In this document: positions 1 to 13,574 of the stretch, in pieces
How positions within the stretch are numbered: the first letter of the stretch is position 1
Layout of the letters: the number at the start of each line of letters is the position of its first letter
From: a virus
Taxonomy: Duplodnaviria; Heunggongvirae; Uroviricota; Caudoviricetes
Virus record (IMG/VR): IMGVR_UViG_2571042636_000011
Reading direction: 5' to 3' (one strand)
DNA length: 25,526 nt
Position numbers and translations under genes: made by a program
The notes under the pieces: model-generated
Seen by the model: the letters and a program-made list of their open reading frames with translations, nothing else
The model's database searches: none
What the model was told of the DNA's origin: nothing

Positions 1-1053
1 TTACGGGGTAATGCCAACCGCTGCCGCCACTTTGTCGCCACTTGGCAGCGTTGCCAGAGGATTGAAACGAAGCGCCGTTTCCAGATGATCCGGTGCCAGA
101 TGTGCGTAACGCATAGTCATTTTTATATCGTGGTGTCCGAGAATTTTTTGTAAGGCCAGAATGTTTCCACCCGACATCATGAAGTGCGCCGCAAACGTAT
201 GGCGCAGAACGTGTGTGAGTTGACCGCGAGGGAGCACGATAGACGTTTTTTCCATCACGGATAAAAATTGAAAATAACAGTCTGTGAAGAAATTGAACCC
301 ATCAAGCGCCATGATCTCTTCGTAAAGCTCTTTACTGATAGGGATGCTTCTGTTTTTCTTCCCCTTCGTTCTTACAAAGGTAATTCGGTATTTGGTCACC
401 TGTGAGCGGGTAAGATTTACGGCTTCACGCCAGCGTGCGCCAGTGCTTAAGCATATCTTAACTACCAGTGCCAGAATTGGGTCCTGACGTTTACAATCAG
501 CCAGCAATTCAACAATCTGCTCATGGGTAAGCCATGCCATCTCTTTTTCTGCGATGGTGAATTTTCGCATGTTCTCCAGTGGGTTCGGATACGACCATTC
601 GCCCAGGCGGGATAGTTCGCTAAAAACACTACTAAGATAGCTTTGCTCCAGGTTAATAGTGACTGGGCTTGCTCCTTTTTTCCATTTCTCGCTGAAGTAG
701 ATCTCACCCGTCAGGCGTTTATCTCGATAGTGGGCAAACATTTTAGATGTGAGATCGGTTGCAAGGGGATTGCCCAGAGCGTCAACCATCAACAGCAATT
801 TGTCATAGACATGCTGCCCAGCGGTTAGAGATTTACCATGTAGTTTGAACCATAGCTCAACTACGTCTTTCAGTGTTCGACGATCCACTGATTCACCCAG
901 CCAGGGCTTTGCTTCGGTTTCTTCCATCGTGTGGCGCTCAAAAGCCAGAGCTTCGCCTTTGGTGGCGAATTGTTTACGCACACGACGCCCACTACGTCCG
1001 GCGGGGTAACATTCGCAAAGCCATTTCCCTGTGGTGAGTTTTCGTACTGCCAT
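1..1053 (-). CDS. int: Tyrosine site-specific integrase (phage 186/P2 Int family), about 350 aa
   Basis: ORF 1..1209(-). From the internal Met the protein begins MAVRKLTTGKWLCECYPAG..., which matches my recollection of the 186 Int N-terminus, so the start is placed at ATG 1053..1051 with GGAGGG about 10 nt upstream. C-terminal tyrosine-recombinase signature ...THVLRHTFAAHFMMSGGNILALQKILGHHDIKMTMRYAHL. Stop TAA at 3..1. Confidence 0.9.
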   Translation of the reverse strand: MAVRKLTTGKWLCECYPAGRSGRRVRKQFATKGEALAFERHTMEETEAKPWLGESVDRRTLKDVVELWFKLHGKSLTAGQHVYDKLLLMVDALGNPLATDLTSKMFAHYRDKRLTGEIYFSEKWKKGASPVTINLEQSYLSSVFSELSRLGEWSYPNPLENMRKFTIAEKEMAWLTHEQIVELLADCKRQDPILALVVKICLSTGARWREAVNLTRSQVTKYRITFVRTKGKKNRSIPISKELYEEIMALDGFNFFTDCYFQFLSVMEKTSIVLPRGQLTHVLRHTFAAHFMMSGGNILALQKILGHHDIKMTMRYAHLAPDHLETALRFNPLATLPSGDKVAAAVGITP

Positions 1054-1241
1054 AAAAAATGCCCTCCAGTAGAGAGCATTTTTACTGTATGTATAACCAG
1101 TGTCAATGTATGAAATCCTACGACCATACATCTCACTGAAGCCATAATGAAGTTGGCTATTCTTTTTGCTATGTGAGCATGTAACTTTTGCGGTTAACCT
1201 GCGGCTCATTTTTATTTTAGACGCAGATATAAAAGCAAAAG

Positions 1242-1433
1242 TTATCGTGAGTTTTTAGTACAGATTTTTTTGGATTTACTAATAGTTCCATCATTGCAAA
1301 CGAATTTGCCATCTGAGGTACAGTGAGAAACACCTCCCTTTTTCCCTGAGCAGGGATAATTTCTAGCATAGGTAGTTAGTGGGTTTAATAACAAAGAACA
1401 TGACAAAACCACAAAAAATACCTTACCAAGCAT
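1242..1433 (-). CDS. Small secreted cysteine-rich peptide (63-aa precursor, predicted about 40-aa mature peptide with 4 Cys); function unknown
   Basis: ATG 1433..1431 preceded by GGGAGG about 5 nt upstream on the minus strand. N-terminus [23 protein letters not shown] looks like a Sec signal peptide (basic n-region, hydrophobic core, TYA cleavage motif). Mature part [40 protein letters not shown]. Sits between cI and int in the lysogenic transcription unit. Confidence 0.5.
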
Positions 1434-1448
1434 AGTTTCCTCCCGGTA

Positions 1449-2105
1449 CTATTTAACATACTTGACTGTTAAACTTATAATTTTACCAATTATTTCAATG
1501 TCTTCTATCTTGCATTCGAAGGCTCTGTTTCCACCCTCGACGAAGATTCTTCCACCGGGTAAACGAGTAATGTCACGGATCGTTATTTCGCCATCAATAC
1601 TTATTACCCATTTACCATCACGTATATCATCAAATTCTTTATCACAAATAAATTCAGAATTGTTATCTGTGATGACAAAAGGTTTTTTAAACGTAGAGGG
1701 TAGAAATTCCTTATCAAAAATATAAAAACCGTCTTTCTGCAATGCTCCATCAGACAATAAATATTTTTCTACTTCTATAGTATTTGTATTTGCTGATGCT
1801 TGCTTTGAACCATGCCCTGTTGTTAGCCAATTAAGCGAGGTGCCGGTTTCAAGGGCGCACTGGATTACCCAATCTGCTGGAAAAATATCACGCATATAGC
1901 GCGTTGCCATGGTGCTCTTAGAAACACCTAAATGATCACAGAGAGCCTGACGGGTACCGAACCCATATGCTTCAACTAAACGTTCTATGGCTTTCTTACC
2001 GCCGCTATTGAAATCCACAAGTCCTCCAAAGAAATCCAAAATTCGTTGACAGATTCCAAAAGCGATCTTAAAGTTGAACCAGAAGTGTTCTTTTGGAGCC
2101 TTCAC
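1449..2105 (-). CDS. cI: Immunity repressor CI (phage 186 CI type)
   Basis: 218-aa ORF. Segment ...ERLVEAYGFGTRQALCDHLGVSKSTMATRYMRD...CALETGTSLNWLTTG resembles the 186 CI N-terminal helix-turn-helix region as I remember it. Transcribed divergently from apl/cII as in 186. Start in the ORF track is GTG 2105 with no clear SD, so the exact start is uncertain. Confidence 0.8.
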   Translation of the reverse strand: MKAPKEHFWFNFKIAFGICQRILDFFGGLVDFNSGGKKAIERLVEAYGFGTRQALCDHLGVSKSTMATRYMRDIFPADWVIQCALETGTSLNWLTTGHGSKQASANTNTIEVEKYLLSDGALQKDGFYIFDKEFLPSTFKKPFVITDNNSEFICDKEFDDIRDGKWVISIDGEITIRDITRLPGGRIFVEGGNRAFECKIEDIEIIGKIISLTVKYVK

Positions 2106-3771: not shown

Positions 3772-4005
3772 ATGCGTAATATTGAAACCCTCAAGACTAA
3801 AACCGGACCGGATGATGCAGGGCTTAATATTTTACTGACAGAGGCTCGTCTGGAAGAACGCCGGGCAAGGGCTGAAGCAATGGCAGCTCGCCTTGATAGC
3901 CTGGCGTGTCATATCACATCCCGCCAGCTAAACCACGTCGAAGCAGCAGAACTACTGCGTGTAACTGCTGAAGCAATCCAGAACGAAGCGCAGGAGATCC
4001 ACTAA
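3772..4005 (+). CDS. Hypothetical early-operon protein, about 77 aa, predicted helical
   Basis: ATG 3772 with CAGGAG 8 nt upstream (the ORF track starts at TTG 3766). Stop overlaps the start of the next gene (TAATG at 4003..4007). Charged, helical composition (EERRARAEAMAARLDSL...). Confidence 0.5.
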   Translation: MRNIETLKTKTGPDDAGLNILLTEARLEERRARAEAMAARLDSLACHITSRQLNHVEAAELLRVTAEAIQNEAQEIH

Positions 4006-4232: not shown

Positions 4233-5086
4233 GCACCATCCTGAAATGGGCGGGAAATAAAACCGCCGTAATGTCCGAACTGAAAAAACATCTTCCAGCT
4301 GGCCCGCGACTGGTTGAACCTTTCGCGGGTTCCTGTGCTGTGATGATGGAGACGGATTATCCCAGCTATCTGGTTGCGGATATTAATCCTGATTTAATCA
4401 ACCTCTATAAAAAGGTTGCCGCTGATTGTGAATCGTTTATATCTCGCGCCAGAGTTTTATTTAAGGAAGCAAACAGGGAGGTGGCTTATTACAACATAAG
4501 GCAGGAGTTTAATTACTCAACTGAAATTACTGATTTCATGAAAGCGGTATATTTCCTGTATCTCAATCGTCACGGTTACCGTGGGTTATGTCGCTATAAC
4601 AAGAGCGGGCATTTCAACATTCCCTACGGTAATTATAAAAATCCGTATTTCCCTGAAAAAGAAATTCGCGCATTTGCAGAGAAAGCCCAACGAGCAACGT
4701 TTATCTGCGCCAGCTTTGATGAAACGCTGGCGATGTTGAAGGCGGGGGATGTGGTGTATTGCGATCCGCCGTATGACGGTACGTTTTCCAGCTATCACAC
4801 TGATGGTTTCACTGAAGATGACCAGTATCACCTGGCATCCGTTCTTGAACATCGGTCATCAGAAGGACATCCGGTCATTGTTTCTAACAGTGACACATCC
4901 CTGATCCGTTCGCTGTATCGCAATTTTACTCACCACTACATCAAGGCAAAACGCAGCATCGGCGTAGCAGCTGGTGAGAGTAAATCTGCAACAGAAATCA
5001 TCGCTGTTTCTGGGGCGCGCTGCTGGGTGGGATTTGATCCTTCGCGTGGCGTGGATAGTTCTGCCGTGTACGGAGTACGTGCATGA
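4229..5086 (+). CDS. dam: DNA adenine (N6) methyltransferase, Dam family
   Basis: Start [11 protein letters not shown] (Dam motif I, KWAGGK-like) with GGAGG upstream of ATG 4229. Catalytic motif DPPY present ([10 protein letters not shown]). Length about 285 aa. Stop overlaps the start of the A gene (ATGA). Confidence 0.85.
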
Positions 5087-7497
5087 GACATGCTGATATG
5101 AACAACTGCAGCGGCTTTAACGAGGCCGCCGCAGCATTCTCATGGAACAGCCCGAAAAAGGCGATTAACCCTTATCTGGACCCGGCGGAAGTTGCGCCGG
5201 TTTCTGCGCTTTCAAACCTGATCACTCTGTACGCTGCCGATAACAAGCAGGAACAACTGCGCCGCGAGGCACTGAGTGATCAGGTCTGGGAGCGTTATTT
5301 CTTTAATGAATCCCGTGATCCTGTCCAGCGCGAAATGGAGCAGGATAAGCTCATTAGCCGGGCAAAGCTGGTGCATGAGCAGCAGCGTTTTAATCCGGAC
5401 ATGGTCATACTGGCGGACGTTAACGCCCAGCCTTCCCATATCAGCAAGCCGCTGATGCAACGTATTGAATACTTCAGCAGCCTGGGCAGGCCAAAGGCTT
5501 ATTCCCGCTATTTGCGTGAGACGATTAAACCATGTCTGGAACGACTAGAGCATGTACGCGACAGCCAGCTATCTGCATCTTTTCGTTTTATGGCAAGCCA
5601 TGAAGGGCTGGACGGCCTGCTGATCTTGCCTGAAATGAGTCAGGATCAGGTGAAGCGCCTGTCTACCCTTGTTGCCGCGCATATGAGCATGTGCCTTGAT
5701 GCAGCTTGTGGTGATTTGTATGCCACCGATGACGTTAAGCCAGAAGAAATCCGCAAGACATGGGAAAGGGTGGCGGCGGAAACCCTGCGTCTGGATGTCA
5801 TCCCTCCTGCGTTTGAGCAACTCCGCCGGAAAAGAAACCGCCGTAAACCCGTACCCTATGAACTCATTCCGGGTTCGCTGGCGCGTATGTTGTGCGCCGA
5901 CTGGTGGTATCGGAAATTATGGAAGATGCGTTTCGAATGGCGGGAAGAGCAGTTGCGTGCTGTTTGCCTGGTCAGCAAAAAAGCATCTCCCTATGTCAGC
6001 TATGAAGCCGTGATGCATAAACGTGAGCAGCGCCGTAAGTCGCTGGAGTTTTTCCGTTCTCATGAACTGGTGAACGAAGACGGCGACACGCTGGATATGG
6101 AGGACGTGGTAAACGCCAGTAGTAGCAACCCGGCGCATCGCCGCAATGAGATGATGGCATGTGTTAAAGGTCTGGAGCTTATCGCGGAAATGCGCGGTGA
6201 CTGCGCCGTTTTCTACACCATCACCTGTCCGTCACGTTTCCATTCCACGCTAAATAACGGCAGGCCCAACCCGAACTGGACAAATGCGACGGTAAGACAA
6301 AGCAGTGATTATCTGGTCGGCATGTTTGCTGCATTTCGTAAGGCGATGTACAAAGCCGGATTGCGCTGGTATGGCGTGCGGGTGGCTGAGCCGCATCATG
6401 ACGGTACAGTTCACTGGCACCTGTTGTGTTTTATGCGCAAAAAAGATCGCCGCGCCATTACTGCTTTGTTGCGTAAGTTTGCCATTCGTGAAGACCGCGA
6501 GGAGCTGGGTAATAACACAGGACCACGCTTTAAGTCTGAGCTGATAAACCCGCGCAAAGGTACACCAACAAGCTACATCGCGAAATACATCAGTAAGAAC
6601 ATTGACGGGCGTGGTCTGGCTGGCGAGATCAGCAAGGAAACGGGTAAATCTCTGCGTGATAACGCTGAATACGTTAATGCCTGGGCGTCTCTGCATCGTG
6701 TTCAGCAATTCCGCTTCTTTGGCATTCCGGGGCGTCAGGCTTACCGTGAACTGCGATTGCTGGCTGGTCAGGCGGCAAGGCAACAGGGTGACAAAAAAGC
6801 AGGTGCGCCGGTACTGGATAACCCGCGCCTTGATGCCATTCTGGCTGCAGCTGATGCTGGTTGCTTTGCCACCTACATCATGAAGCAGGGCGGCGTACTG
6901 GTTCCCCGTAAATATCACCTCATCAGAACCGCTTATGAAATCAACGAAGAGCCGACCGCCTATGGCGATCACGGTATTCGTATTTATGGCATCTGGTCAC
7001 CCATTGCAGAGGGCAAGATCTGCACTCATGCAGTGAAGTGGAAAATGGTCCGTAAAGCCGTTGACGTTCAGGAGGCGGCAGCCGACCAGGGCGCTTGCGC
7101 CCCTTGGACTCGTGGCAATAACTGTCCCCTTGCTGAAAATTTGTACCAACAAGGGAAAGACAAATCAGCTGATGGAGATACCAGAACGGATATCACCCGT
7201 ATGGATGACAAGGAGTTGCACGATTACCTGCACAGTATGAGCAAAAAAGAGCGCCGGGAACTGGCAGCAAGGTTACGCCTGGTGAAACCGAAACGGCGTA
7301 AAGACTACAAACAGCGAATTACAGATCATCAGCGACAGCAGCTCGTGTATGAACTGAAGTCCAGGGGATTTGATGGCAGCGAGAAAGAGGTCGATTTACT
7401 CCTTCGCGGCGGCAGTATTCCGTCAGGAGCAGGCCTGCGTATCTTCTATCGGAACCAGCGTTTGCAGGAAGATGATAAGTGGCGGAACCTGTATTAA
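5083..7497 (+). CDS. A: Rolling-circle replication initiator endonuclease (P2 gpA / 186 RepA family)
   Basis: 804-aa ORF after the early genes. Contains an HxH metal-binding motif ([11 protein letters not shown]) and a tyrosine-containing region ([17 protein letters not shown]), as in P2 A-type nickases. GGAG 7 nt upstream of ATG 5083. Confidence 0.9.
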
Positions 7498-8226: not shown

Positions 8227-10086
8227 TTAGTGAGGGCTGGTTATTACGTAGTCGCTCTGGTCATCCTCTCCCAGCCTCTCAGGTATTAAATCGTTGAAGG
8301 AAATAGTATTACTCTTAGGTTTTTCTTCAATTGGAAGTTCAGCTACCCTTAATTTGAGCGGCATGGGGCAGACGATACCACTAAAAATACAGGTTCCTGT
8401 AGATAGCGTTGGAATCGACTCTTCAGTCAGTCGATCTATATATGATACTGATTTTTCAATTGCGTACAGATCATTCTGATTAATAAGGCGATGAATAAAA
8501 TAATTGTGTGCTTGGGATATGATTGTCGACGATATATCATTAGGGCGTTGACTGGAAATTGTGATAAAAACTCCAAATTTTCTCCCCTCCTTTATGATTT
8601 CCTCAAAAGTTTCCAGACGATAATCTCTCCAACTTTCCGTTTCCCGAAAAGAAGTATTAGACAAAATATTGTGGGCTTCATCTATAATGATGTGCAGTGT
8701 AGATTTCTCTGTAGACATTTTCTTCATATTGTAAGCCCACTTGGCTATCAAAAGAGGAAGCGTTTTTTTCATGGTTATATTAACCATATTTAGATTCACA
8801 ACCGTGAAATTATGTTCACCCCAAAAGTCAGACTGTCCGGAAGTATCAAATATTTTGGCTATATCTTTACGGTTAGCACTCATTCTATTTATAACTGGTG
8901 AAATATGTTCAGGGTTAGACTTGTTAGATAAATATTCCTGTATTAACTGTAAGTACATAAAGTCCAACAGTTCTTCAATCATATCAGTTTTAAATGAAAA
9001 ATTGCTTGCAAGACTGAATAGATAGGAGCGCTCAGTATCAGCTTCTGTATTGAAAATACTACCACCCCTCAATTTCCATTTATATGCAGTTGAATGATAC
9101 TCAAGATCAGATATAAGTTCTGGGTCATCTTTGAAAATTGGGCTAAGAAACTGATTTATAGTATCGCATTTGGGTTTGTCGCTACTAAAGAGATTTTGTC
9201 TGACTTTTTTCTTCAGGATATTGCGCATAAACTCAAGAGGATTATCAGCAGTCATCACTTTCTTGCGAAACTCAAGAACTCTCTTCAGGAAAGGTTTCTG
9301 TGTTTTGTCTGTTGCATCGGTTAGAACTGAGAGCATATCATGCTCAAGTAGAACCTCTCTGGGTAGAGGAAGTTTGTCACCATTTGCATGGTGCGTGTTG
9401 AGATTATAAACCGTCTTCTCGTCAGTAATACAGCGTGGGGCAGTATATTCTCCATTAAAGTCGAATAGAATAAATTTGCATCTTTCACTAAAGTGGTTGC
9501 CGAGAATATGTTTAACTTGGGCAATACCTGCTTTGTATAGCGCGGCTAGGGTATTTGACTTTCCGCTGCCTGTATTACCGAAAATGGCAATGTGGGAATT
9601 AATAAGACCATTGATTGGTAGTGCAATTTCAATATCTTCAAGATCTGTACGAGTAAACCTCATTACAGTTTCGTCTGCATCAGCTATCTGATGAACCGTC
9701 TGTATCATCTCTTCAGTTACCACGAAGACTTCATTGCCGATGAGAGGTAGTTCACGCGAACCACCAATGAAGCAACCAGTACGATCAATGTAACCCGTAA
9801 GAGTAGAGGTCAGGTATCGCCGATATCGCCAGGCATCACTGCCGCTCCCAGCGAGATGTTTTTCCTCAATGATTCGTTCCGCTTCAACCTTGCCGATCAG
9901 GCTCATGAAACCTTTTTTGATCTCAATGAAGCTACCCACTGATACATTTCTTAGAACTTTTCCCTGATAAAACAAGTCACTGAGATTTTTGTTTTTATCG
10001 ACCAAAATTGTCACAGCGCGTCCAGAAACCTCACAGACTTCGCCTATACGGAGCACCGCTTCCTCTTCAGTAAAATGCCTGCTCAT
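8227..10086 (-). CDS. herA: HerA-like ATPase (HAS-barrel plus RecA-like P-loop NTPase), predicted partner of the upstream SIR2-like protein
   Basis: About 619 aa from ATG 10086..10084, which overlaps the SIR2 stop (ATGA); GGGAGG upstream. Walker A AIFGNTGSGKSNT and Walker B LHIIIDEAHN. N-terminal beta-rich segment (RIGEVCEVSGRAVTILVDK...GSFIEIKKGFMSLIGKVEAERI) is consistent with a HerA HAS barrel. AT-rich codon usage unlike the phage core. Confidence 0.75.
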   Translation of the reverse strand: MSRHFTEEEAVLRIGEVCEVSGRAVTILVDKNKNLSDLFYQGKVLRNVSVGSFIEIKKGFMSLIGKVEAERIIEEKHLAGSGSDAWRYRRYLTSTLTGYIDRTGCFIGGSRELPLIGNEVFVVTEEMIQTVHQIADADETVMRFTRTDLEDIEIALPINGLINSHIAIFGNTGSGKSNTLAALYKAGIAQVKHILGNHFSERCKFILFDFNGEYTAPRCITDEKTVYNLNTHHANGDKLPLPREVLLEHDMLSVLTDATDKTQKPFLKRVLEFRKKVMTADNPLEFMRNILKKKVRQNLFSSDKPKCDTINQFLSPIFKDDPELISDLEYHSTAYKWKLRGGSIFNTEADTERSYLFSLASNFSFKTDMIEELLDFMYLQLIQEYLSNKSNPEHISPVINRMSANRKDIAKIFDTSGQSDFWGEHNFTVVNLNMVNITMKKTLPLLIAKWAYNMKKMSTEKSTLHIIIDEAHNILSNTSFRETESWRDYRLETFEEIIKEGRKFGVFITISSQRPNDISSTIISQAHNYFIHRLINQNDLYAIEKSVSYIDRLTEESIPTLSTGTCIFSGIVCPMPLKLRVAELPIEEKPKSNTISFNDLIPERLGEDDQSDYVITSPH

Positions 10087-11126
10087 CTCGAGCCTCCCAG
10101 ATAGCACGTGATAATGTTATTCATTACCGGAAAATCAACATTTCTTCCCGGCCGATAAATAATCTCTACGTTTGAGTAATCCCGAAATTTCTCCATAAAG
10201 CCGTTAACACTGGCCTCATCGAAAGCAAAGATCAGTAGCTTCAGGGTGGCGTTGCGCAGGGCTTTTTTAGTTATCGTTTCAATGTGCTCATCAGCAAACG
10301 AGAACCCAAAGACAATTAGTAAAGTTGCTTCTTTATCAAGCTCGTTGGAATAGGTTCTCAGTAAATCATAATAAACGTTCTGTAGTAGAGTCTCTTTAAA
10401 CTTCTCCTTACGTGGAAGAATAAGTGCATGAGCAAGTACCCATCCTTTCATTTCGGCTAGGGTGGGAAAGTCAAGCGGCTTAATATCTGCAATACGATAA
10501 ATGATTTTCCCTTTAGAATGCTGCCAAGAGAGCGAACCATGAAGTTTTATAAGGTTAACAGTAGGAAGCTCAACTTTATAATTATACAGATTTCCGGTTG
10601 CACTTACAGAATGATTAAAGCTACCCGCATCAAATTCCGCATCTCCCAAAATACTTGCTCTTCTATTGAATCCATCATTAAAAAGAATATTGTTATTACG
10701 TGTGGCAGCTTCTTCGATGAATAAATCATAATTAGTTGTAAAAACGTTAATACGCCTCGGAAGTAGGCCAGTTCGGCGGCGGGTCAGTATCTTTTCCAGT
10801 GAAGACATAAATGCATCATAATTTGCACGGGTACATTCCAAATCGGTGATCACCTGAGGTGCGAAGGGGGTGCCGTAGCCGCGCTTCAACATGCATTCAT
10901 GAGGTAGCCAAACATCTGACAAAAAGTCAGCTGCCATCCTTAAGTATTCATCTTCCTGTTCATCATTAATAAGCTGCTGAAGATCCGTTTCGATTGTCCC
11001 CAGTACTTTAATCGCTGGGAGGGATGCACCTGATCCGATGAGAAAGTTAATGTTAGCTGACTGAAATATCCGCTCTAAGTAGTCTCGGTCACTATCGTTA
11101 CCGTAGTATGCGCGCTTGACTGCCAT
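10083..11126 (-). CDS. SIR2-like (sirtuin-fold, predicted NAD+-consuming) defence effector protein
   Basis: About 347 aa from ATG 11126..11124 (AAGGA SD; the ORF track starts at TTG 11141). Gly-rich NAD-binding loop FLIGSGASLP, the TTNYD motif (VFTTNYDLFIEEA) and a candidate catalytic His in KLHGSLSW, as in defence-associated SIR2 domains. Coupled to the HerA-like gene. Confidence 0.75.
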   Translation of the reverse strand: MAVKRAYYGNDSDRDYLERIFQSANINFLIGSGASLPAIKVLGTIETDLQQLINDEQEDEYLRMAADFLSDVWLPHECMLKRGYGTPFAPQVITDLECTRANYDAFMSSLEKILTRRRTGLLPRRINVFTTNYDLFIEEAATRNNNILFNDGFNRRASILGDAEFDAGSFNHSVSATGNLYNYKVELPTVNLIKLHGSLSWQHSKGKIIYRIADIKPLDFPTLAEMKGWVLAHALILPRKEKFKETLLQNVYYDLLRTYSNELDKEATLLIVFGFSFADEHIETITKKALRNATLKLLIFAFDEASVNGFMEKFRDYSNVEIIYRPGRNVDFPVMNNIITCYLGGSR

Positions 11127-11426
11127 CTTATCCTTCCACAAAACATTGGATTAGTCTGTAATTTATTTAATCTTAACGCCGAGCTCAATACTTTAACATC
11201 ACTTCTTCTGGCGATTGCTATGAGCCCTTCTTGATAAAAAGTTCGATCGGGAAACTGATCCTTTATGCCACAAGTTTTCTAGCTATCCTCAAAAAATTGG
11301 TGTTAAAACTGTGCCAACAAAGTTGCAAGGTTCGCTTCTCGCTCACAGCGAACTTTCATCTTTGTAAACCCGTATGATTCGCTTTTCAGCAGTCATTCAG
11401 ATACGGATTTACGCTTCCCTTGGCAG

Positions 11427-11456
11427 CGCATGACTATGACGCATGAGATCGCATGA
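11427..11456. repeat. Three direct repeats of CGCATGA at 13- and 10-nt spacing
   Basis: cgcatgactatgacgcatgagatcgcatga. Copies start at 11427, 11440 and 11450, in the non-coding region about 100 bp left of the candidate cos sequence. Function unknown. Confidence 0.4.
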
Positions 11457-11551
11457 TCGTTTAAGGATCGTTTTTGCTGAAGTCAGCCAGAACTGGCGTG
11501 CTTTTGCTTATGTCATGCAGGTGCATGAAAACCACTACATAAAGCGGGCAG

Positions 11552-11570
11552 GCGTGGCGGGGATACGAGC
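11552..11570. other. Candidate cohesive-end (cos) site of the P2/186 type
   Basis: GGCGTGGCGGGGATACGAG followed by GC-rich CGCGCGC. The first 13 nt match the start of the 19-nt P2/186 cos overhang as I remember it (P2 GGCGAGGCGGGGAAAGCAC). It lies in the prophage position between the right-end accessory genes and Q. Identification is from memory and unverified. Confidence 0.3.
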
Positions 11571-11650
11571 GCGCGCAATGCTATGATCTGGCTCTTTCAA
11601 AACTGTTAACGGTTCTTCACATTCTTAAATGATCATGGTAGCTTAAGCAT

Positions 11651-11781
11651 GCACATGTAGGCAGATTTGTTGGTTGTGGTATCGCAATCAGTGATCTAAA
11701 TGTTAGATGGATTCGCCTTCTGACATCCTTGTAGCCATTCTTGGGCTGTCCTATGCTTTGCGTAAGAGTGCCTACATGTGC
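11651..11781 (+). ncRNA. msr-msd: Retron msr-msd non-coding RNA (template for msDNA), bounded by a1/a2 inverted repeats
   Basis: 13-bp inverted repeat GCACATGTAGGCA (11651..11663) and TGCCTACATGTGC (11769..11781) flanks about 105 nt, immediately upstream of the RT gene (starts 11817), which is the canonical a1-msr-msd-a2-RT arrangement. The 5' part (CATGTAGGCAGATTTGTTGGTTGTG..ATCGCAA.CAGTG) resembles an enterobacterial retron msr that I recall. Exact ends are approximate. Confidence 0.5.
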
Positions 11782-11816
11782 CTACCCTAACTGATAATCA
11801 AGGTTGATTTTTAGAT

Positions 11817-13574
11817 ATGGCACCCCTATCAATTTTAGAACGTTTACAAAACGCTGCTAACAGGCAAGATTTGGCTAGTATCTTGAATCTTAAAACTGCT
11901 TTTCTTACGGATGTTATTTATCGTTTAAAAGCTGAAACGCAGTATACACAATTTACTATCCCTAAAAAAAACGGAGCGCCGAGAGTCATATCAGCACCTA
12001 CCACTAAGCTCAAAGATATTCAACGTAGATTAGCTGATGTTTTATATTTATGTCGTGCAGAAATTTATAAAAAATATAATATTAATCCAGTTTTATCTCA
12101 TGGGTTTGAAAAAGAAAAGTCAATTATTACGAATGCTGAACGGCATAGAGGTAAAACGCTACTACTAAATATAGACCTTGAGGATTATTTTGATAGTTTT
12201 AATTTTGGACGTGTTAGAGGTTTTTTCTTATCAAACAGAGATTTTAGATTAAATAATACTGTTGCTACAACGATCGCACAAATTGCATGTTTTCAGAATG
12301 GACTTCCTCAAGGAAGCCCATGCTCTCCAATTATAAGTAACTTAATCAGTGGAATTCTTGATATAAGATTATCAAAGTTAGCAAAGAAATACGGATGCAA
12401 TTATTCACGGTATGCTGATGATCTTACATTTTCAACTAATAAAAAAACATTTCCAAAAGAGATTGCTGATGTTGGCGGAGAGTCTGTAACCCTAAGTCCA
12501 ACTTTAATTAAAGAGATTATAAAGGCTGGCTTTAAAATAAATGATAAAAAGACAAGGGTTTGTTATAAAACATCACGACAAGATGTTACTGGGTTGACTG
12601 TTAATAAAAAAGTGAATGTTGGCAAAGAATATGCAAAAGTAACGCGTGCCATGGCTCATTCTCTTTATAAAGATGGTTCTTTTGTTATTGTTACTGAATC
12701 AGGAAAGATTGAAAAAGGTACATGTGCTAAATTAGAAGGCCGTTTTGGATTTATTGACTCAATAGATAAATATAATAATTTAAAACTAAAGAACGCAAGA
12801 CAGTTGGAAAAGTACCAAAGTGTAAATCATGGATTAAACTACACTGCAAAATTGAATTCGAGAGAAAAAGCCTACAGTTATTTTCTATACTATAAAAATT
12901 TTCATGGAATGGAAATGCCAACAATACTCACTGAGGGTAAAACAGACCGTGTATATTTAAAGTGTGCTTTGAAGTCATTGGCGAATTCATATCCTTTATT
13001 GTTTAATTCTTCTGATGATAGCTCTAAAAATGAGTATCGTGTTAATTTTTTTAAAGCAACTGAAAAAACAAGCTATTTTCTTGACATTTCTGGCGGTGCT
13101 ACAGACTTCAAAAGATTTATATTAAGATACCAAGAACAAAAAAAGAGGTTCGAGAAATTTAAACCAAAGCACCCTGTTATTATGCTTCTTGATAATGACT
13201 CAGGCCCTAAAGATTTATTAAATCACTTAAAGGATAAAGTAAAAAATTGTCCAAATGATGTTGATACTATTCGTAAGGCAAGGTATACCCACATATTTGA
13301 CAATCTCTATTTGTTATTAACACCATTGCTTCCTGGAGGGAAAGAGTCTTGTATGGAGGATTTATTTGATAGCACGGTACTATCAACGGTGCTTGATGGA
13401 AAGACATTTAATAAATCTAATGATACGGATACAAAAACAGAATATGGTAAGCATGTGTTTTCAACAAAGGTTATAAAGGCAAATTGTAAAACAATTAGTT
13501 TTGAAAAGTTTAAAGTTATTTTTGATGGTATTGAGGAAATTATTGCAGATTATTCAAAGAGGTGCAAAGTATAA
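11817..13574 (+). CDS. ret: Retron-type reverse transcriptase with a C-terminal TOPRIM-like (OLD-family-like) domain, 585 aa
   Basis: RT motifs seen in the translation: motif A LLLNIDLEDYFDSF, motif B QGLPQGSPCSPIISNL, motif C YSRYADDLTFS (YADD). C-terminal about 250 aa contain a conserved Glu motif (ILTEGKTDRVYLK) and a DxD motif (MLLDNDSGP), consistent with a TOPRIM fold. Very AT-rich codon usage. Confidence 0.9.
   Translation: MAPLSILERLQNAANRQDLASILNLKTAFLTDVIYRLKAETQYTQFTIPKKNGAPRVISAPTTKLKDIQRRLADVLYLCRAEIYKKYNINPVLSHGFEKEKSIITNAERHRGKTLLLNIDLEDYFDSFNFGRVRGFFLSNRDFRLNNTVATTIAQIACFQNGLPQGSPCSPIISNLISGILDIRLSKLAKKYGCNYSRYADDLTFSTNKKTFPKEIADVGGESVTLSPTLIKEIIKAGFKINDKKTRVCYKTSRQDVTGLTVNKKVNVGKEYAKVTRAMAHSLYKDGSFVIVTESGKIEKGTCAKLEGRFGFIDSIDKYNNLKLKNARQLEKYQSVNHGLNYTAKLNSREKAYSYFLYYKNFHGMEMPTILTEGKTDRVYLKCALKSLANSYPLLFNSSDDSSKNEYRVNFFKATEKTSYFLDISGGATDFKRFILRYQEQKKRFEKFKPKHPVIMLLDNDSGPKDLLNHLKDKVKNCPNDVDTIRKARYTHIFDNLYLLLTPLLPGGKESCMEDLFDSTVLSTVLDGKTFNKSNDTDTKTEYGKHVFSTKVIKANCKTISFEKFKVIFDGIEEIIADYSKRCKV

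What the first reader, a model, noticed from the sequence alone, without database searches (positions are those of the whole stretch)
1242..1433. Secreted cysteine-rich mini-protein encoded between cI and int (candidate lysogenic-conversion factor)
A strong SD and ATG sit just 15 nt downstream of the cI stop, on the lysogenic transcript. The product has a clear signal peptide and a roughly 40-aa mature peptide with four cysteines (two possible disulfides) and many lysines. It would therefore be expressed in the lysogen and exported. Small exported peptides at this position could act in superinfection exclusion, as a bacteriocin or toxin-like factor, or as an envelope modifier. I do not recognise the family.
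Basis: partly seen in the sequence, partly recalled or inferred. Interest (0 to 1): 0.6.

Follow-up and report, generated by a model that had tools for sequence, protein, structure and literature searches.

The report
Prophage YdcA-family periplasmic mini-protein gene

Summary
Window 1242-1433 (- strand) encodes a 63-aa protein. It starts 15 nt after the stop codon of a 186-type cI repressor and 5 nt after a GGGAGG Shine-Dalgarno sequence. It has a Sec-type signal peptide and a 40-aa mature part with four cysteines and a net charge of about +7.

The gene is real. Four E. coli alleles give pN/pS of 0.03-0.09. The family is known: NCBIfam NF007463 scores above its cut-off, the precomputed Pfam family is PF27300 "YdcA", and RefSeq names this locus "YdcA family protein". 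The segment occurs in 742 of 5426 complete E. coli genomes.

Phage 186 has nothing between cI and int, so this is an accessory gene. The same order, repressor then YdcA then variable cargo then int, recurs in Klebsiella, Hafnia and Yersinia prophages. It also occurs, unannotated, in Haemophilus phage HP2.

New leads:
- The domain resembles each lobe of Legionella Dis2, a type IV secretion outer-membrane-cap protein.
- It is fused to three kinds of secreted nuclease.
- A subfamily sits inside type VI secretion clusters.

The function is untested. My best guess, at about 30%, is a periplasmic binding module that gives envelope-level exclusion. A toxin or lipoprotein role is unlikely.

The parts
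1242..1433 (-). CDS for the 63-aa YdcA-family pre-protein (stop codon at 1242-1244)
   Evidence: The ORF appears. NCBIfam NF007463 scores 115.8 bits against a cut-off of 93. phrog_6000 matches. PGAP names WP_000900883.1 'YdcA family protein' at the identical locus. pN/pS is 0.03-0.09.
1365..1433 (-). Predicted Sec signal peptide (residues 1-23, predicted cleavage after T-Y-A)
   Evidence: Hydrophobicity profile. Ala at -1 keeps a fixed distance from the mature domain across the family (invariant in A1, at least 90% in A2), while the h-region sequence varies freely. A heuristic was used; no SignalP run was possible.
1245..1364 (-). Mature 40-aa domain: [40 protein letters not shown], 4 Cys, net charge about +7
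   Evidence: In alignment A3, P, C, S, GG, C, F, C, G, S, S and C are invariant. The AlphaFold core has pLDDT of about 90 for residues 31-55. The top PDB match is Dis2, chain 7muc_AN.
1439..1444 (-). Shine-Dalgarno sequence GGGAGG, 5 nt upstream of the ATG
   Evidence: Read directly from the sequence. It is conserved in the E. coli B and W5-6 alleles.
1449..2018 (-). 186-type cI repressor gene, immediately upstream on the same strand (stop TAG at 1449-1451)
   Evidence: Pfam Phage_CI_repr and Phage_CI_C match. PGAP annotates it. It is 32% identical to HP2 cI.
1182..1244 (-). Long imperfect hairpin that begins at the stop codon of the ORF
   Evidence: Folding energy is -20.5 kcal/mol with z = -4.8. 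No U-run follows on this strand, so its role is unknown. On the + strand it is terminator-like.
1055..1083 (-). Terminator-shaped hairpin plus U-run that contains the int Shine-Dalgarno sequence and ends just before the int ATG (1053)
   Evidence: Folding energy is -17.5 kcal/mol with z = -6.0. It is conserved, with a stem change that keeps pairing, in relatives that carry different cargo. This would make cI plus the YdcA-like gene a transcription unit insulated from int, but that is an inference.
1..1053 (-). Phage integrase gene downstream
   Evidence: Pfam Int_N and Phage_integrase match. The PGAP start is at 1053. It is 96% identical to the int of Klebsiella and Escherichia P2-like phages.

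Best explanation
Shown:
- This is a real, purifying-selected gene of the YdcA family, carried as an accessory gene directly after the cI repressor gene of a 186/P2-like E. coli prophage.

Inferred from anatomy:
- It is transcribed with cI from the lysogenic promoter and translated from its own strong Shine-Dalgarno sequence.
- It is exported by Sec and cleaved after Ala23.
- Periplasmic oxidation into two disulfides folds it into a 40-residue, strongly cationic mini-domain.

Inferred from relatives:
- The domain behaves as a small binding or adaptor module that works close to the outer membrane, next to envelope-spanning machines.
- The same fold forms each lobe of Legionella Dis2, which sits in the Dot/Icm outer-membrane cap.
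- A subfamily is encoded between tssJ/tssE and vasL in type VI secretion clusters.
- The domain is fused to the N-terminus of secreted nucleases of three unrelated folds.

My commitment: in the lysogen, the free domain occupies or masks a periplasmic, outer-membrane-proximal site. This hampers entry of foreign DNA or contractile devices. That amounts to superinfection or entry exclusion, as with the unrelated periplasmic Glo protein in the same slot of phage K139.

Confidence by step: identity and family at least 0.95; periplasmic soluble protein about 0.8; lysogen expression about 0.75; exclusion-type function about 0.3.
For: Identity:
- NF007463 scores 115.8 against a cut-off of 93. PF27300:YdcA is precomputed for the homologues. 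PGAP gives the family name.
- The protein is 51% identical to E. coli K-12 YdcA.

Selection:
- pS is 0.26-0.36 and pN 0.007-0.03 against the window allele.
- The ORF is intact even in the decayed E. coli B prophage, where cII and the replication gene are truncated.

Accessory status and position:
- Phage 186 has cI abutting int.
- The order cI, YdcA, then nothing, a KAP NTPase or a 347-aa ORF, then int occurs in E. coli, Klebsiella, Hafnia and Yersinia.
- In Haemophilus HP2, an unannotated 60-aa homologue overlaps the cI stop (ATGA). It is 54% identical, while the two cI proteins are only 32% identical.
- In 7 further species loci, an HTH_3 plus S24 repressor lies upstream on the same strand.

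Fold:
- The AlphaFold core has pLDDT of about 90.
- Dis2 is the top PDB hit by profile (E 8.4e-6 for the full length, 5.6e-3 for the mature part only, with both lobes matched) and by Foldseek (probability 0.99, 39% identity).
- Dis2 sits near the outer membrane, is held by disulfides, and contacts DotC, DotD and DotK (PMC8486379, PMC12716638).

Context:
- Type VI secretion clusters hold a subfamily in about 16 of 80 species loci.
- Fusions to Endonuclease_NS, SNase and PLDc_2 nucleases are found.

Precedent:
- K139 Glo lies between cI and int and is annotated as a periplasmic protein involved in phage exclusion.
- The slot between cI and int is a known defence hotspot (PMC9122126). Neighbouring cargo genes match PADLOC PDC-S20 and PD-Lambda-1.
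Against: - No expression, localisation or phenotype data exist for this gene or any prophage copy.
- The protein is absent from PADLOC.
- Most family members (about 50 of 80 species loci) are neither in prophages nor in secretion clusters, so the domain may have a general envelope role.
- Loss of Dis2 in Legionella has only subtle effects (PMC12716638).
- The only phenotypes reported for chromosomal ydcA concern acid and 3-hydroxypropionate tolerance (PMC7642389).
- Glo is not homologous, so the analogy is positional only.
Confidence: 0.5

Rival explanations
1. It is an envelope or acid-stress fitness factor. The prophage copy would do what chromosomal YdcA does, stabilising or protecting the periplasm or outer membrane under acid or organic-acid stress. 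It would benefit the lysogen without acting on phages.
For: The protein is 51% identical to E. coli K-12 YdcA. The ydcA gene is reported to be induced at pH 5 under YdcI, and its deletion makes E. coli W sensitive to 3-hydroxypropionate (PMC7642389). Most family members are chromosomal and outside mobile elements.
Against: The acid link is one study with no mechanism. It does not explain the repeated recruitment behind phage repressor genes, into type VI secretion clusters, onto a 3.9-kb mobilisable plasmid, or onto nucleases.
Confidence: 0.2
2. It is a periplasmic nucleic-acid-binding module. The cationic domain would bind DNA in the periplasm or outside the cell, as it would do for the nucleases it is fused to. 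The free phage-encoded copy would sequester or block incoming DNA from transformation, conjugation or injection.
For: N-terminal YdcA domains are fused to Endonuclease_NS (P0182, P0173, P0193), SNase (P0112) and PLDc_2 (P0176), with a weak HNH match in P0201. Some members also carry a C-terminal PBCV_basic_adap motif (P0218, P0146). The mature part has a net charge of +7 with invariant or nearly invariant Lys residues. Phage and plasmid copies are common in naturally competent Haemophilus, Moraxella and Acinetobacter.
Against: Fusion to nucleases fits a localisation or anchoring domain equally well. Dis2 binds proteins, not DNA, in the solved complex (PMC12716638). No known DNA-binding fold was matched.
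Confidence: 0.15
3. It is a secreted bacteriocin, toxin or antimicrobial peptide acting on neighbouring cells.
For: It is small, cationic, cysteine-rich and exported.
Against: A Sec signal peptide takes it only as far as the periplasm. No immunity gene, dedicated exporter or lysis gene is adjacent; the neighbours are cI and int. Single-copy chromosomal paralogues exist without partners. Some members lie among the core structural genes of type VI secretion clusters. There are no hits to toxin families.
Confidence: 0.03
4. It is an outer-membrane lipoprotein, processed at Cys12 (VVLS|C), acting like the phage exclusion lipoproteins Cor or Llp.
For: V-L-S-C loosely fits a lipobox. One homologue carries the UniRef name 'Lipoprotein'.
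Against: Cys12 is too close to the N-terminus, with only about 6 hydrophobic residues after K4. It is not conserved: homologues have F, I or V at -1, or no Cys at all. The A-x-A type site before the mature domain is conserved.
Confidence: 0.03
5. It is a chance ORF or a decaying remnant with no function.
For: The ORF is very short, and a second 50-aa ORF overlaps it in another frame.
Against: pN/pS is 0.03-0.09. The representative library holds 457 family clusters. The curated HMM scores above its cut-off. The gene is more conserved than the neighbouring cI.
Confidence: 0.01

Closest known systems
E. coli K-12 YdcA (b1419) and the YdcA family (Pfam PF27300; NCBIfam PRK10040 group, NF007462/NF007463)
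   Same: Both have a signal peptide plus a mature domain of about 37-40 aa with the motif PCSGxKGG[VI]SHC...[17 protein letters not shown] and four cysteines. The window protein is 51% identical to K-12 YdcA overall. It passes the NF007463 cut-off.
   Different: It belongs to the NF007463 subgroup, not the K-12 equivalog NF007462 (68.5 bits against a cut-off of 118). It is prophage-borne and sits behind cI, whereas K-12 ydcA lies between rydC and hokB. The function of the family is unknown (PMC11340327).
[quoted passage not shown]
   Same: Dis2 is the best and only meaningful PDB match by both profile and Foldseek. Its segment CCSKMGGINYC..GRLVCNNGFYS aligns with [22 protein letters not shown], and three of the four Cys positions align. 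Both are periplasmic and disulfide-stabilised (PMC8486379).
   Different: Dis2 has two lobes pinned by five disulfides and is part of a 13-fold secretion complex. The window protein has one lobe and no secretion-system neighbours. Statistical support is modest without the signal peptide. The two Dis2 papers read here call Dis2 Legionella-specific and report no structural relatives.
Glo of Vibrio phage K139
   Same: Glo is encoded between cI and int on the lysogenic strand of a P2/HP1-related phage. It has a signal peptide and is annotated as a periplasmic protein involved in phage exclusion.
   Different: Glo is 137 aa and shows no sequence similarity (E 0.16 in a pairwise comparison). The relationship is an analogy of position and compartment only.
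Defence cargo hotspots of P2-like prophages
   Same: The interval between cI and int is variable. It holds a KAP NTPase (PADLOC PDC-S20, 570 bits) or a PD-Lambda-1-like ATPase in close relatives. A hotspot between cI and int has been described for K139-like phages, and one between int and the primase for P2 (PMC9122126, PMC13586616).
   Different: The YdcA gene is not itself variable cargo. It stays fixed next to cI while the cargo changes downstream of it. It matches no PADLOC model.

Membership tests
YdcA family (NCBIfam NF007463 / Pfam PF27300) | Score above the curated HMM cut-off | tested here: met
   NF007463 scores 115.8 bits against a cut-off of 93 and covers residues 5-63 of the protein and positions 1-58 of the 58-position profile. 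PF27300 is precomputed for the cluster representative. PF27300 is not in the local Pfam copy.
YdcA family (NCBIfam NF007463 / Pfam PF27300) | Conserved mature motif with four cysteines (P-C-S-G-x-K-G-G ... C ... F-x-C-x-D-G-x-x-S-x-S-K ... C) | tested here: met
   All invariant columns of alignments A1, A2 and A3 are present in the window protein.
YdcA family (NCBIfam NF007463 / Pfam PF27300) | N-terminal Sec signal peptide with a small residue at -1 directly before the domain | tested here: met
   The n, h and c regions and the T-Y-A site are present. Ala at -1 is invariant in A1 and at least 90% conserved in A2. This is a heuristic; no dedicated predictor was available.
E. coli K-12 YdcA equivalog (NF007462) | Score above the equivalog cut-off | tested here: not met
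   The score is 68.5 bits against a cut-off of 118. The window protein is a paralogous subgroup, not the K-12 orthologue.
[quoted passage not shown] | Sequence and fold similarity of the lobe | tested here: inconclusive
   [not shown]
[quoted passage not shown] | Two-lobe architecture and association with Dot/Icm genes | tested here: not met
   The window protein has a single domain, and its neighbours are cI and int.
Phage superinfection-exclusion proteins (K139 Glo type) | Homology to Glo | tested here: not met
   Pairwise BLASTP gives E 0.16 over 30 residues.
Phage superinfection-exclusion proteins (K139 Glo type) | Encoded on the lysogenic operon between cI and int, and exported | tested here: met
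   Position and strand are confirmed. Export is predicted only.
Phage superinfection-exclusion proteins (K139 Glo type) | Reduces infection by a superinfecting phage | not testable with these tools
   This needs plating and adsorption assays.
Bacterial lipoproteins | Conserved lipobox with Cys at +1 after a complete signal peptide | tested here: not met
   Cys12 follows only about 6 hydrophobic residues and is not conserved in homologues.
Known anti-phage defence systems (PADLOC-DB 2.0) | Match to a defence-protein model | tested here: not met
   The window protein matches no family at E <= 0.01, whereas the neighbouring cargo genes of relatives do match.

The most novel reading that the evidence does not exclude
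The YdcA domain may be a previously unrecognised, widespread proteobacterial periplasmic adaptor that docks at the outer-membrane-proximal part of envelope-spanning injection and transfer machines. Evidence for this range: the Dis2 lobes in the type IVB secretion cap; a subfamily inside type VI secretion clusters next to tssJ and vasL; copies on mobilisable plasmids; and N-terminal tags on secreted nucleases. On this reading, P2/186-like and HP2-like prophages keep a free copy welded to their repressor gene. The lysogen would use it to block superinfecting contractile-tailed phages or incoming type VI or conjugative attack.
Probability: 0.15. Interest if true: 0.65.

Novelty: already known. 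Interest (0 to 1): 0.38.

Why it matters
About one in eight complete E. coli genomes carries this gene directly behind a prophage repressor (742 of 5426 with the segment, 590 with at least 80% of it). The same arrangement spans Enterobacterales and Haemophilus. It is therefore probably one of the most commonly expressed prophage accessory proteins whose function is unknown.

If it is an exclusion or envelope-remodelling factor, it would add a very small, easily testable player to prophage-mediated defence.

The apparent kinship with the lobes of Legionella Dis2 and with a protein encoded in type VI secretion clusters would also give a first functional handle on the whole YdcA family and on Dis2. 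The two Dis2 papers read here describe Dis2 as Legionella-specific. As a sequence feature, however, it is an ordinary, already annotated family member.

Tried and rejected
- **Local Pfam scan.** It gave only a sub-threshold chance hit (GULLO2-like, 13 bits), because PF27300 is not in the local copy.
- **LDL-receptor class A repeats.** These were the next hits to the mature-domain profile (E 0.013-0.09). I rejected them as similarity of cysteine spacing and composition: only 21 residues align and the CSGKKGG half is not matched. This similarity may explain the 'Neurogenic locus notch' label on Dis2.
- **Names given by sources.** The UniRef name 'Conjugal transfer protein' and the 'ydcA' genes of the gonococcal island and of F-like plasmids were judged uninformative. 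They appear to be positional gene names or propagated labels, though I did not check this directly.
- **Conserved partner gene downstream.** I compared HP2 orf1(S), the Moraxella phage and chromosomal neighbours, the Herbaspirillum neighbour and the Hafnia 347-aa ORF. Only the two Moraxella proteins are related, so there is no universal two-gene module.
- **Lipoprotein reading.** Rejected, because the lipobox is not conserved.
- **Rfam.** No matches in the window.
- **Literature.** Searches on the HP2 region returned nothing useful.

Full report
**1.

On the - strand, the 186-type cI gene ends with TAG at 1451-1449. Fifteen nucleotides later an ATG (1433-1431) is preceded by GGGAGG (1444-1439) with a 5-nt spacing. 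It opens a 63-codon frame that ends at 1244-1242. The product is [23 protein letters not shown]|[40 protein letters not shown].

Residues 1-23 have the layout of a Sec signal peptide: Lys4, a hydrophobic core with 9-residue Kyte-Doolittle means of 2.2-2.7, and T-Y-A at positions -3 to -1. The 40-aa remainder has 4 Cys, 9 Lys or Arg against 2 Asp, and a pI of 9.7. No dedicated signal-peptide predictor was available.

Support for the cleavage site comes from the family alignments. The Ala at -1 is invariant in A1 and at least 90% conserved in A2. It keeps a fixed distance from the mature domain while the hydrophobic region varies freely.

The long ORF is an upstream extension, and PGAP annotates 351 codons. 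A spacer of 188 nt therefore lies between this gene and int.

**2. It is a real gene**

Four E. coli alleles differ at 16-36% of synonymous sites but at only 0.7-3% of non-synonymous sites. The window, E. coli B C2566, W5-6 and FDAARGOS_1251 were compared.

The exact protein is on at least 1000 contigs in E. coli, Salmonella Typhi and Klebsiella. The 395-nt segment between cI and int is found in 742 of 5426 complete E. coli genomes, 590 of them with at least 80% coverage. The ORF is intact even in the decayed E. coli B prophage, whose cII and replication genes are truncated.

**3. The family is known**

- NCBIfam NF007463 (PRK10040.1-2, equivalog) scores 115.8 bits against a cut-off of 93.
- PHROGs phrog_6000 gives E 1.9e-34.
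- The precomputed Pfam family of the homologues is PF27300, labelled 'YdcA'.
- RefSeq annotates the identical locus in strain N196 as 'YdcA family protein' WP_000900883.1.
- E. coli K-12 YdcA (b1419, 57 aa) is 51% identical.

The window protein does not reach the K-12 equivalog cut-off (NF007462, 68.5 against 118), so it is a paralogous subgroup.

The literature describes ydcA as a 57-aa predicted periplasmic protein of unknown function (PMC11340327). One study links it to acid induction through YdcI and to 3-hydroxypropionate tolerance (PMC7642389).

The invariant core of the family is P-C-S-G-x-K-G-G-[VI]-x-x-C ... F-[VI]-C-x-D-G-x-x-S-x-S-K ... C. Cys12 in the signal peptide is not conserved and does not form a usable lipobox, so a lipoprotein is unlikely.

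**4. Genomic setting**

The window is a 186/P2-like prophage integrated next to rcdA. It carries cI (Phage_CI_repr plus Phage_CI_C), an Apl/Cox-like gene, cII (Phage_CP76) and downstream P2-type genes.

In phage 186 itself, cI and int abut with nothing between them. The YdcA gene is therefore an accessory insertion in the lysogenic operon. However, it is not random cargo:

- With the YdcA protein diverged to 61-69% identity, prophages of E. coli, Klebsiella and Hafnia keep the order cI, YdcA, variable gene, int. The variable gene is a KAP NTPase or a 347-aa ORF.
- Yersinia and Buttiauxella prophages, whose cI is only 36-38% identical, also have YdcA right after cI.
- In Haemophilus phages HP2 and S2, an unannotated 60-aa ORF (L001:2920-3102) overlaps the cI stop codon (ATGA) and is 54% identical to the window protein. 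The two cI proteins are only 32% identical.
- In seven beta-proteobacterial species loci, an HTH_3 plus Peptidase_S24 repressor lies upstream on the same strand. In two of them it is within 120 nt, and in two a P2 GpA homologue is nearby.

The variable gene downstream is defence-like. The KAP NTPase matches PADLOC PDC-S20 (570 bits). Phage vB_EcoM-813R9 has the same int and integration site but carries a PD-Lambda-1-like ATPase and no YdcA gene. A defence hotspot between cI and int has been described for K139-like phages, and one between int and the primase for P2 (PMC9122126, PMC13586616).

**5. Transcription logic (inferred)**

Nothing terminator-like lies between cI and the ORF. After the ORF come a long hairpin (1182-1244, z = -4.8) and, just before the int ATG, a terminator-shaped hairpin followed by a U-run (1055-1083, -17.5 kcal/mol, z = -6.0). 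This second hairpin contains the int Shine-Dalgarno sequence.

The second hairpin and a promoter-like TTGACA-17-AAAAAT site (1106-1078) are conserved upstream of int in relatives with different cargo. One stem change preserves pairing: GCUCUC/GAGGGC becomes GCCCUC/GAGGGC.

The simplest reading has two parts. The lysogenic transcript carries cI and the YdcA gene and is stopped or occluded before int. The int gene has its own start site inside the 5' arm of the hairpin. None of this has been tested.

**6. What the domain is**

An exhaustive profile search found 457 clusters at 50% identity (E <= 1e-3). Some contain two or three tandem copies of the domain (P0079-P0081).

AlphaFold gives a confident core, with pLDDT of about 90 for residues 31-55 and a small beta-hairpin.

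The only meaningful match among solved structures is chain AN of 7MUC/7MUD. [quoted passage not shown]
- The profile E-value is 8.4e-6 for the full length and 5.6e-3 for the mature domain alone. Both Dis2 lobes are matched, and three Cys positions align.
- Foldseek ranks it first, with probability 0.99, 39% identity over 38 columns, and TM 0.42.

**7. Functional clues from relatives**

- **Nuclease fusions.** An N-terminal YdcA domain plus a linker precedes Endonuclease_NS (P0182, P0173, P0193), SNase (P0112) and a PLD-type nuclease domain (P0176). All score above the Pfam cut-offs. An HNH match in P0201 is weak. Other members add a C-terminal PBCV_basic_adap motif (P0218, P0146) or a VasL domain (P0113).
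- **Type VI secretion clusters.** Among 80 species-representative loci, about 16 Enterobacterales encode a 132-aa protein inside a type VI secretion cluster in the order tssG, tssJ, tssE, this protein, vasL. The protein consists of a YdcA domain, a basic linker and a short Cys motif. Pfam confirmed T6SS_TssG, T6SS-SciN, GPW_gp25, and ImpA_N plus VasL.
- **Other mobile elements.** Moraxella and Acinetobacter phages carry the gene inside the head-tail module. Fifty-eight plasmids carry it, including a 3.9-kb MOBQ plasmid where it follows traD.

The common denominator is the outer-membrane-proximal periplasm, near machines that move DNA or protein across the envelope, or near enzymes that cut DNA there.

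**8. Mechanism**

Identity, selection, position and family are shown. Export, disulfide formation and co-expression with cI are inferred.

For function, I commit to a small cationic adaptor or binding domain. As a free protein in the lysogen, it would occupy a periplasmic, outer-membrane-proximal site and hinder entry of foreign DNA or contractile devices. The probability is about 0.3.

The precedent is positional. Vibrio phage K139 encodes Glo in the same slot, and Glo is annotated as a periplasmic protein involved in phage exclusion. Glo is unrelated in sequence.

Rivals:
- a stress or envelope fitness factor like chromosomal YdcA (0.2);
- a periplasmic DNA-binding module (0.15);
- a toxin or bacteriocin (0.03), given that there is no partner gene and Sec export reaches only the periplasm;
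- a lipoprotein (0.03);
- a non-functional ORF (0.01).

**9. Novelty and verdict**

The feature is an already annotated member of a known family whose function is unknown, so its distance from known kinds is small. Four points may be new:
- the fixed association with prophage repressor genes, including the unannotated HP2 gene;
- the probable kinship with the Dis2 lobes;
- the type VI secretion subfamily;
- the nuclease fusions.

Interest is moderate.

Noticed in passing
[not shown]
   Followed up: partly
window 1055-1110 (- strand): The int leader holds a promoter-like TTGACA-17-AAAAAT site followed by a terminator-shaped hairpin (-17.5 kcal/mol, z = -6) that buries the int Shine-Dalgarno sequence and ends at the int ATG. 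It is conserved, with a pairing-preserving stem change, in relatives that carry different upstream cargo. It may insulate int from the lysogenic transcript.
   Followed up: partly
window 1182-1244 (- strand): A long imperfect hairpin starts at the stop codon of the YdcA-like gene (-20.5 kcal/mol, z = -4.8). No U-run follows on this strand. On the + strand the inner stem reads as a terminator-like site (1188-1204).
   Followed up: no
L010:1142-2473, L012:5198-6529, L019:5247-6290, L008:3636-5312: The slot between the YdcA gene and int holds variable cargo in relatives. Three variants were seen: a 443-aa KAP NTPase (PADLOC PDC-S20, 570 bits); a 347-aa unknown membrane-like ORF in Hafnia; and a 558-aa PD-Lambda-1-like ATPase in phage vB_EcoM-813R9, which lacks the YdcA gene. 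This looks like a defence hotspot.
   Followed up: partly
window 8227-13574: The classic P2 hotspot between the replication gene (5083-7497) and the portal gene holds three defence genes. They are HerA (8227-10107, -; 885 bits), SIR2 (10083-11141, -; 698 bits) and a retron type I-C RT-Toprim gene (11817-13574, +; 741 bits), all by PADLOC.
   Followed up: partly
L058, L065, L070, L072, L074, L075, L090, L099, L103 and others, around position 4001: In about 16 Enterobacterales species, a 132-136-aa protein is encoded inside a type VI secretion cluster between tssJ/tssE and vasL. It consists of a signal peptide, a YdcA domain, a Lys/Thr-rich linker and a C-terminal QPTCAPLYMA.KPGYTHLPICSGNQY motif. 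In some loci a T5orf172/MUG113 gene is inserted after it.
   Followed up: partly
P0182, P0173, P0193, P0112, P0176, P0201 (representative library): Secreted nucleases of three unrelated folds (Endonuclease_NS, SNase, PLD-like), and possibly HNH, carry an N-terminal YdcA domain. Other members end in a PBCV_basic_adap-like CxC...CTGPRGGxYC motif.
   Followed up: partly
L026:728-904 (Acinetobacter pittii plasmid pApiMCR53a, 3916 bp): A YdcA homologue is one of only five genes on a MOBQ mobilisable plasmid and lies directly after a small 'TraD' gene. Similar copies occur on many Acinetobacter and Rhizobium plasmids.
   Followed up: no
L005:3438-4264 and L022:5001-5884: In Moraxella, the YdcA gene and the following gene travel together as a two-gene cassette, found in phage Mcat15 and on the M. 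bovoculi chromosome. The following gene encodes a 212-232-aa membrane-anchored protein, and the two copies are 37% identical.
   Followed up: no
window 1217-1369 (- strand): A 50-aa ORF overlaps the YdcA-like gene in another frame. It has no support and is regarded as chance.
   Followed up: no
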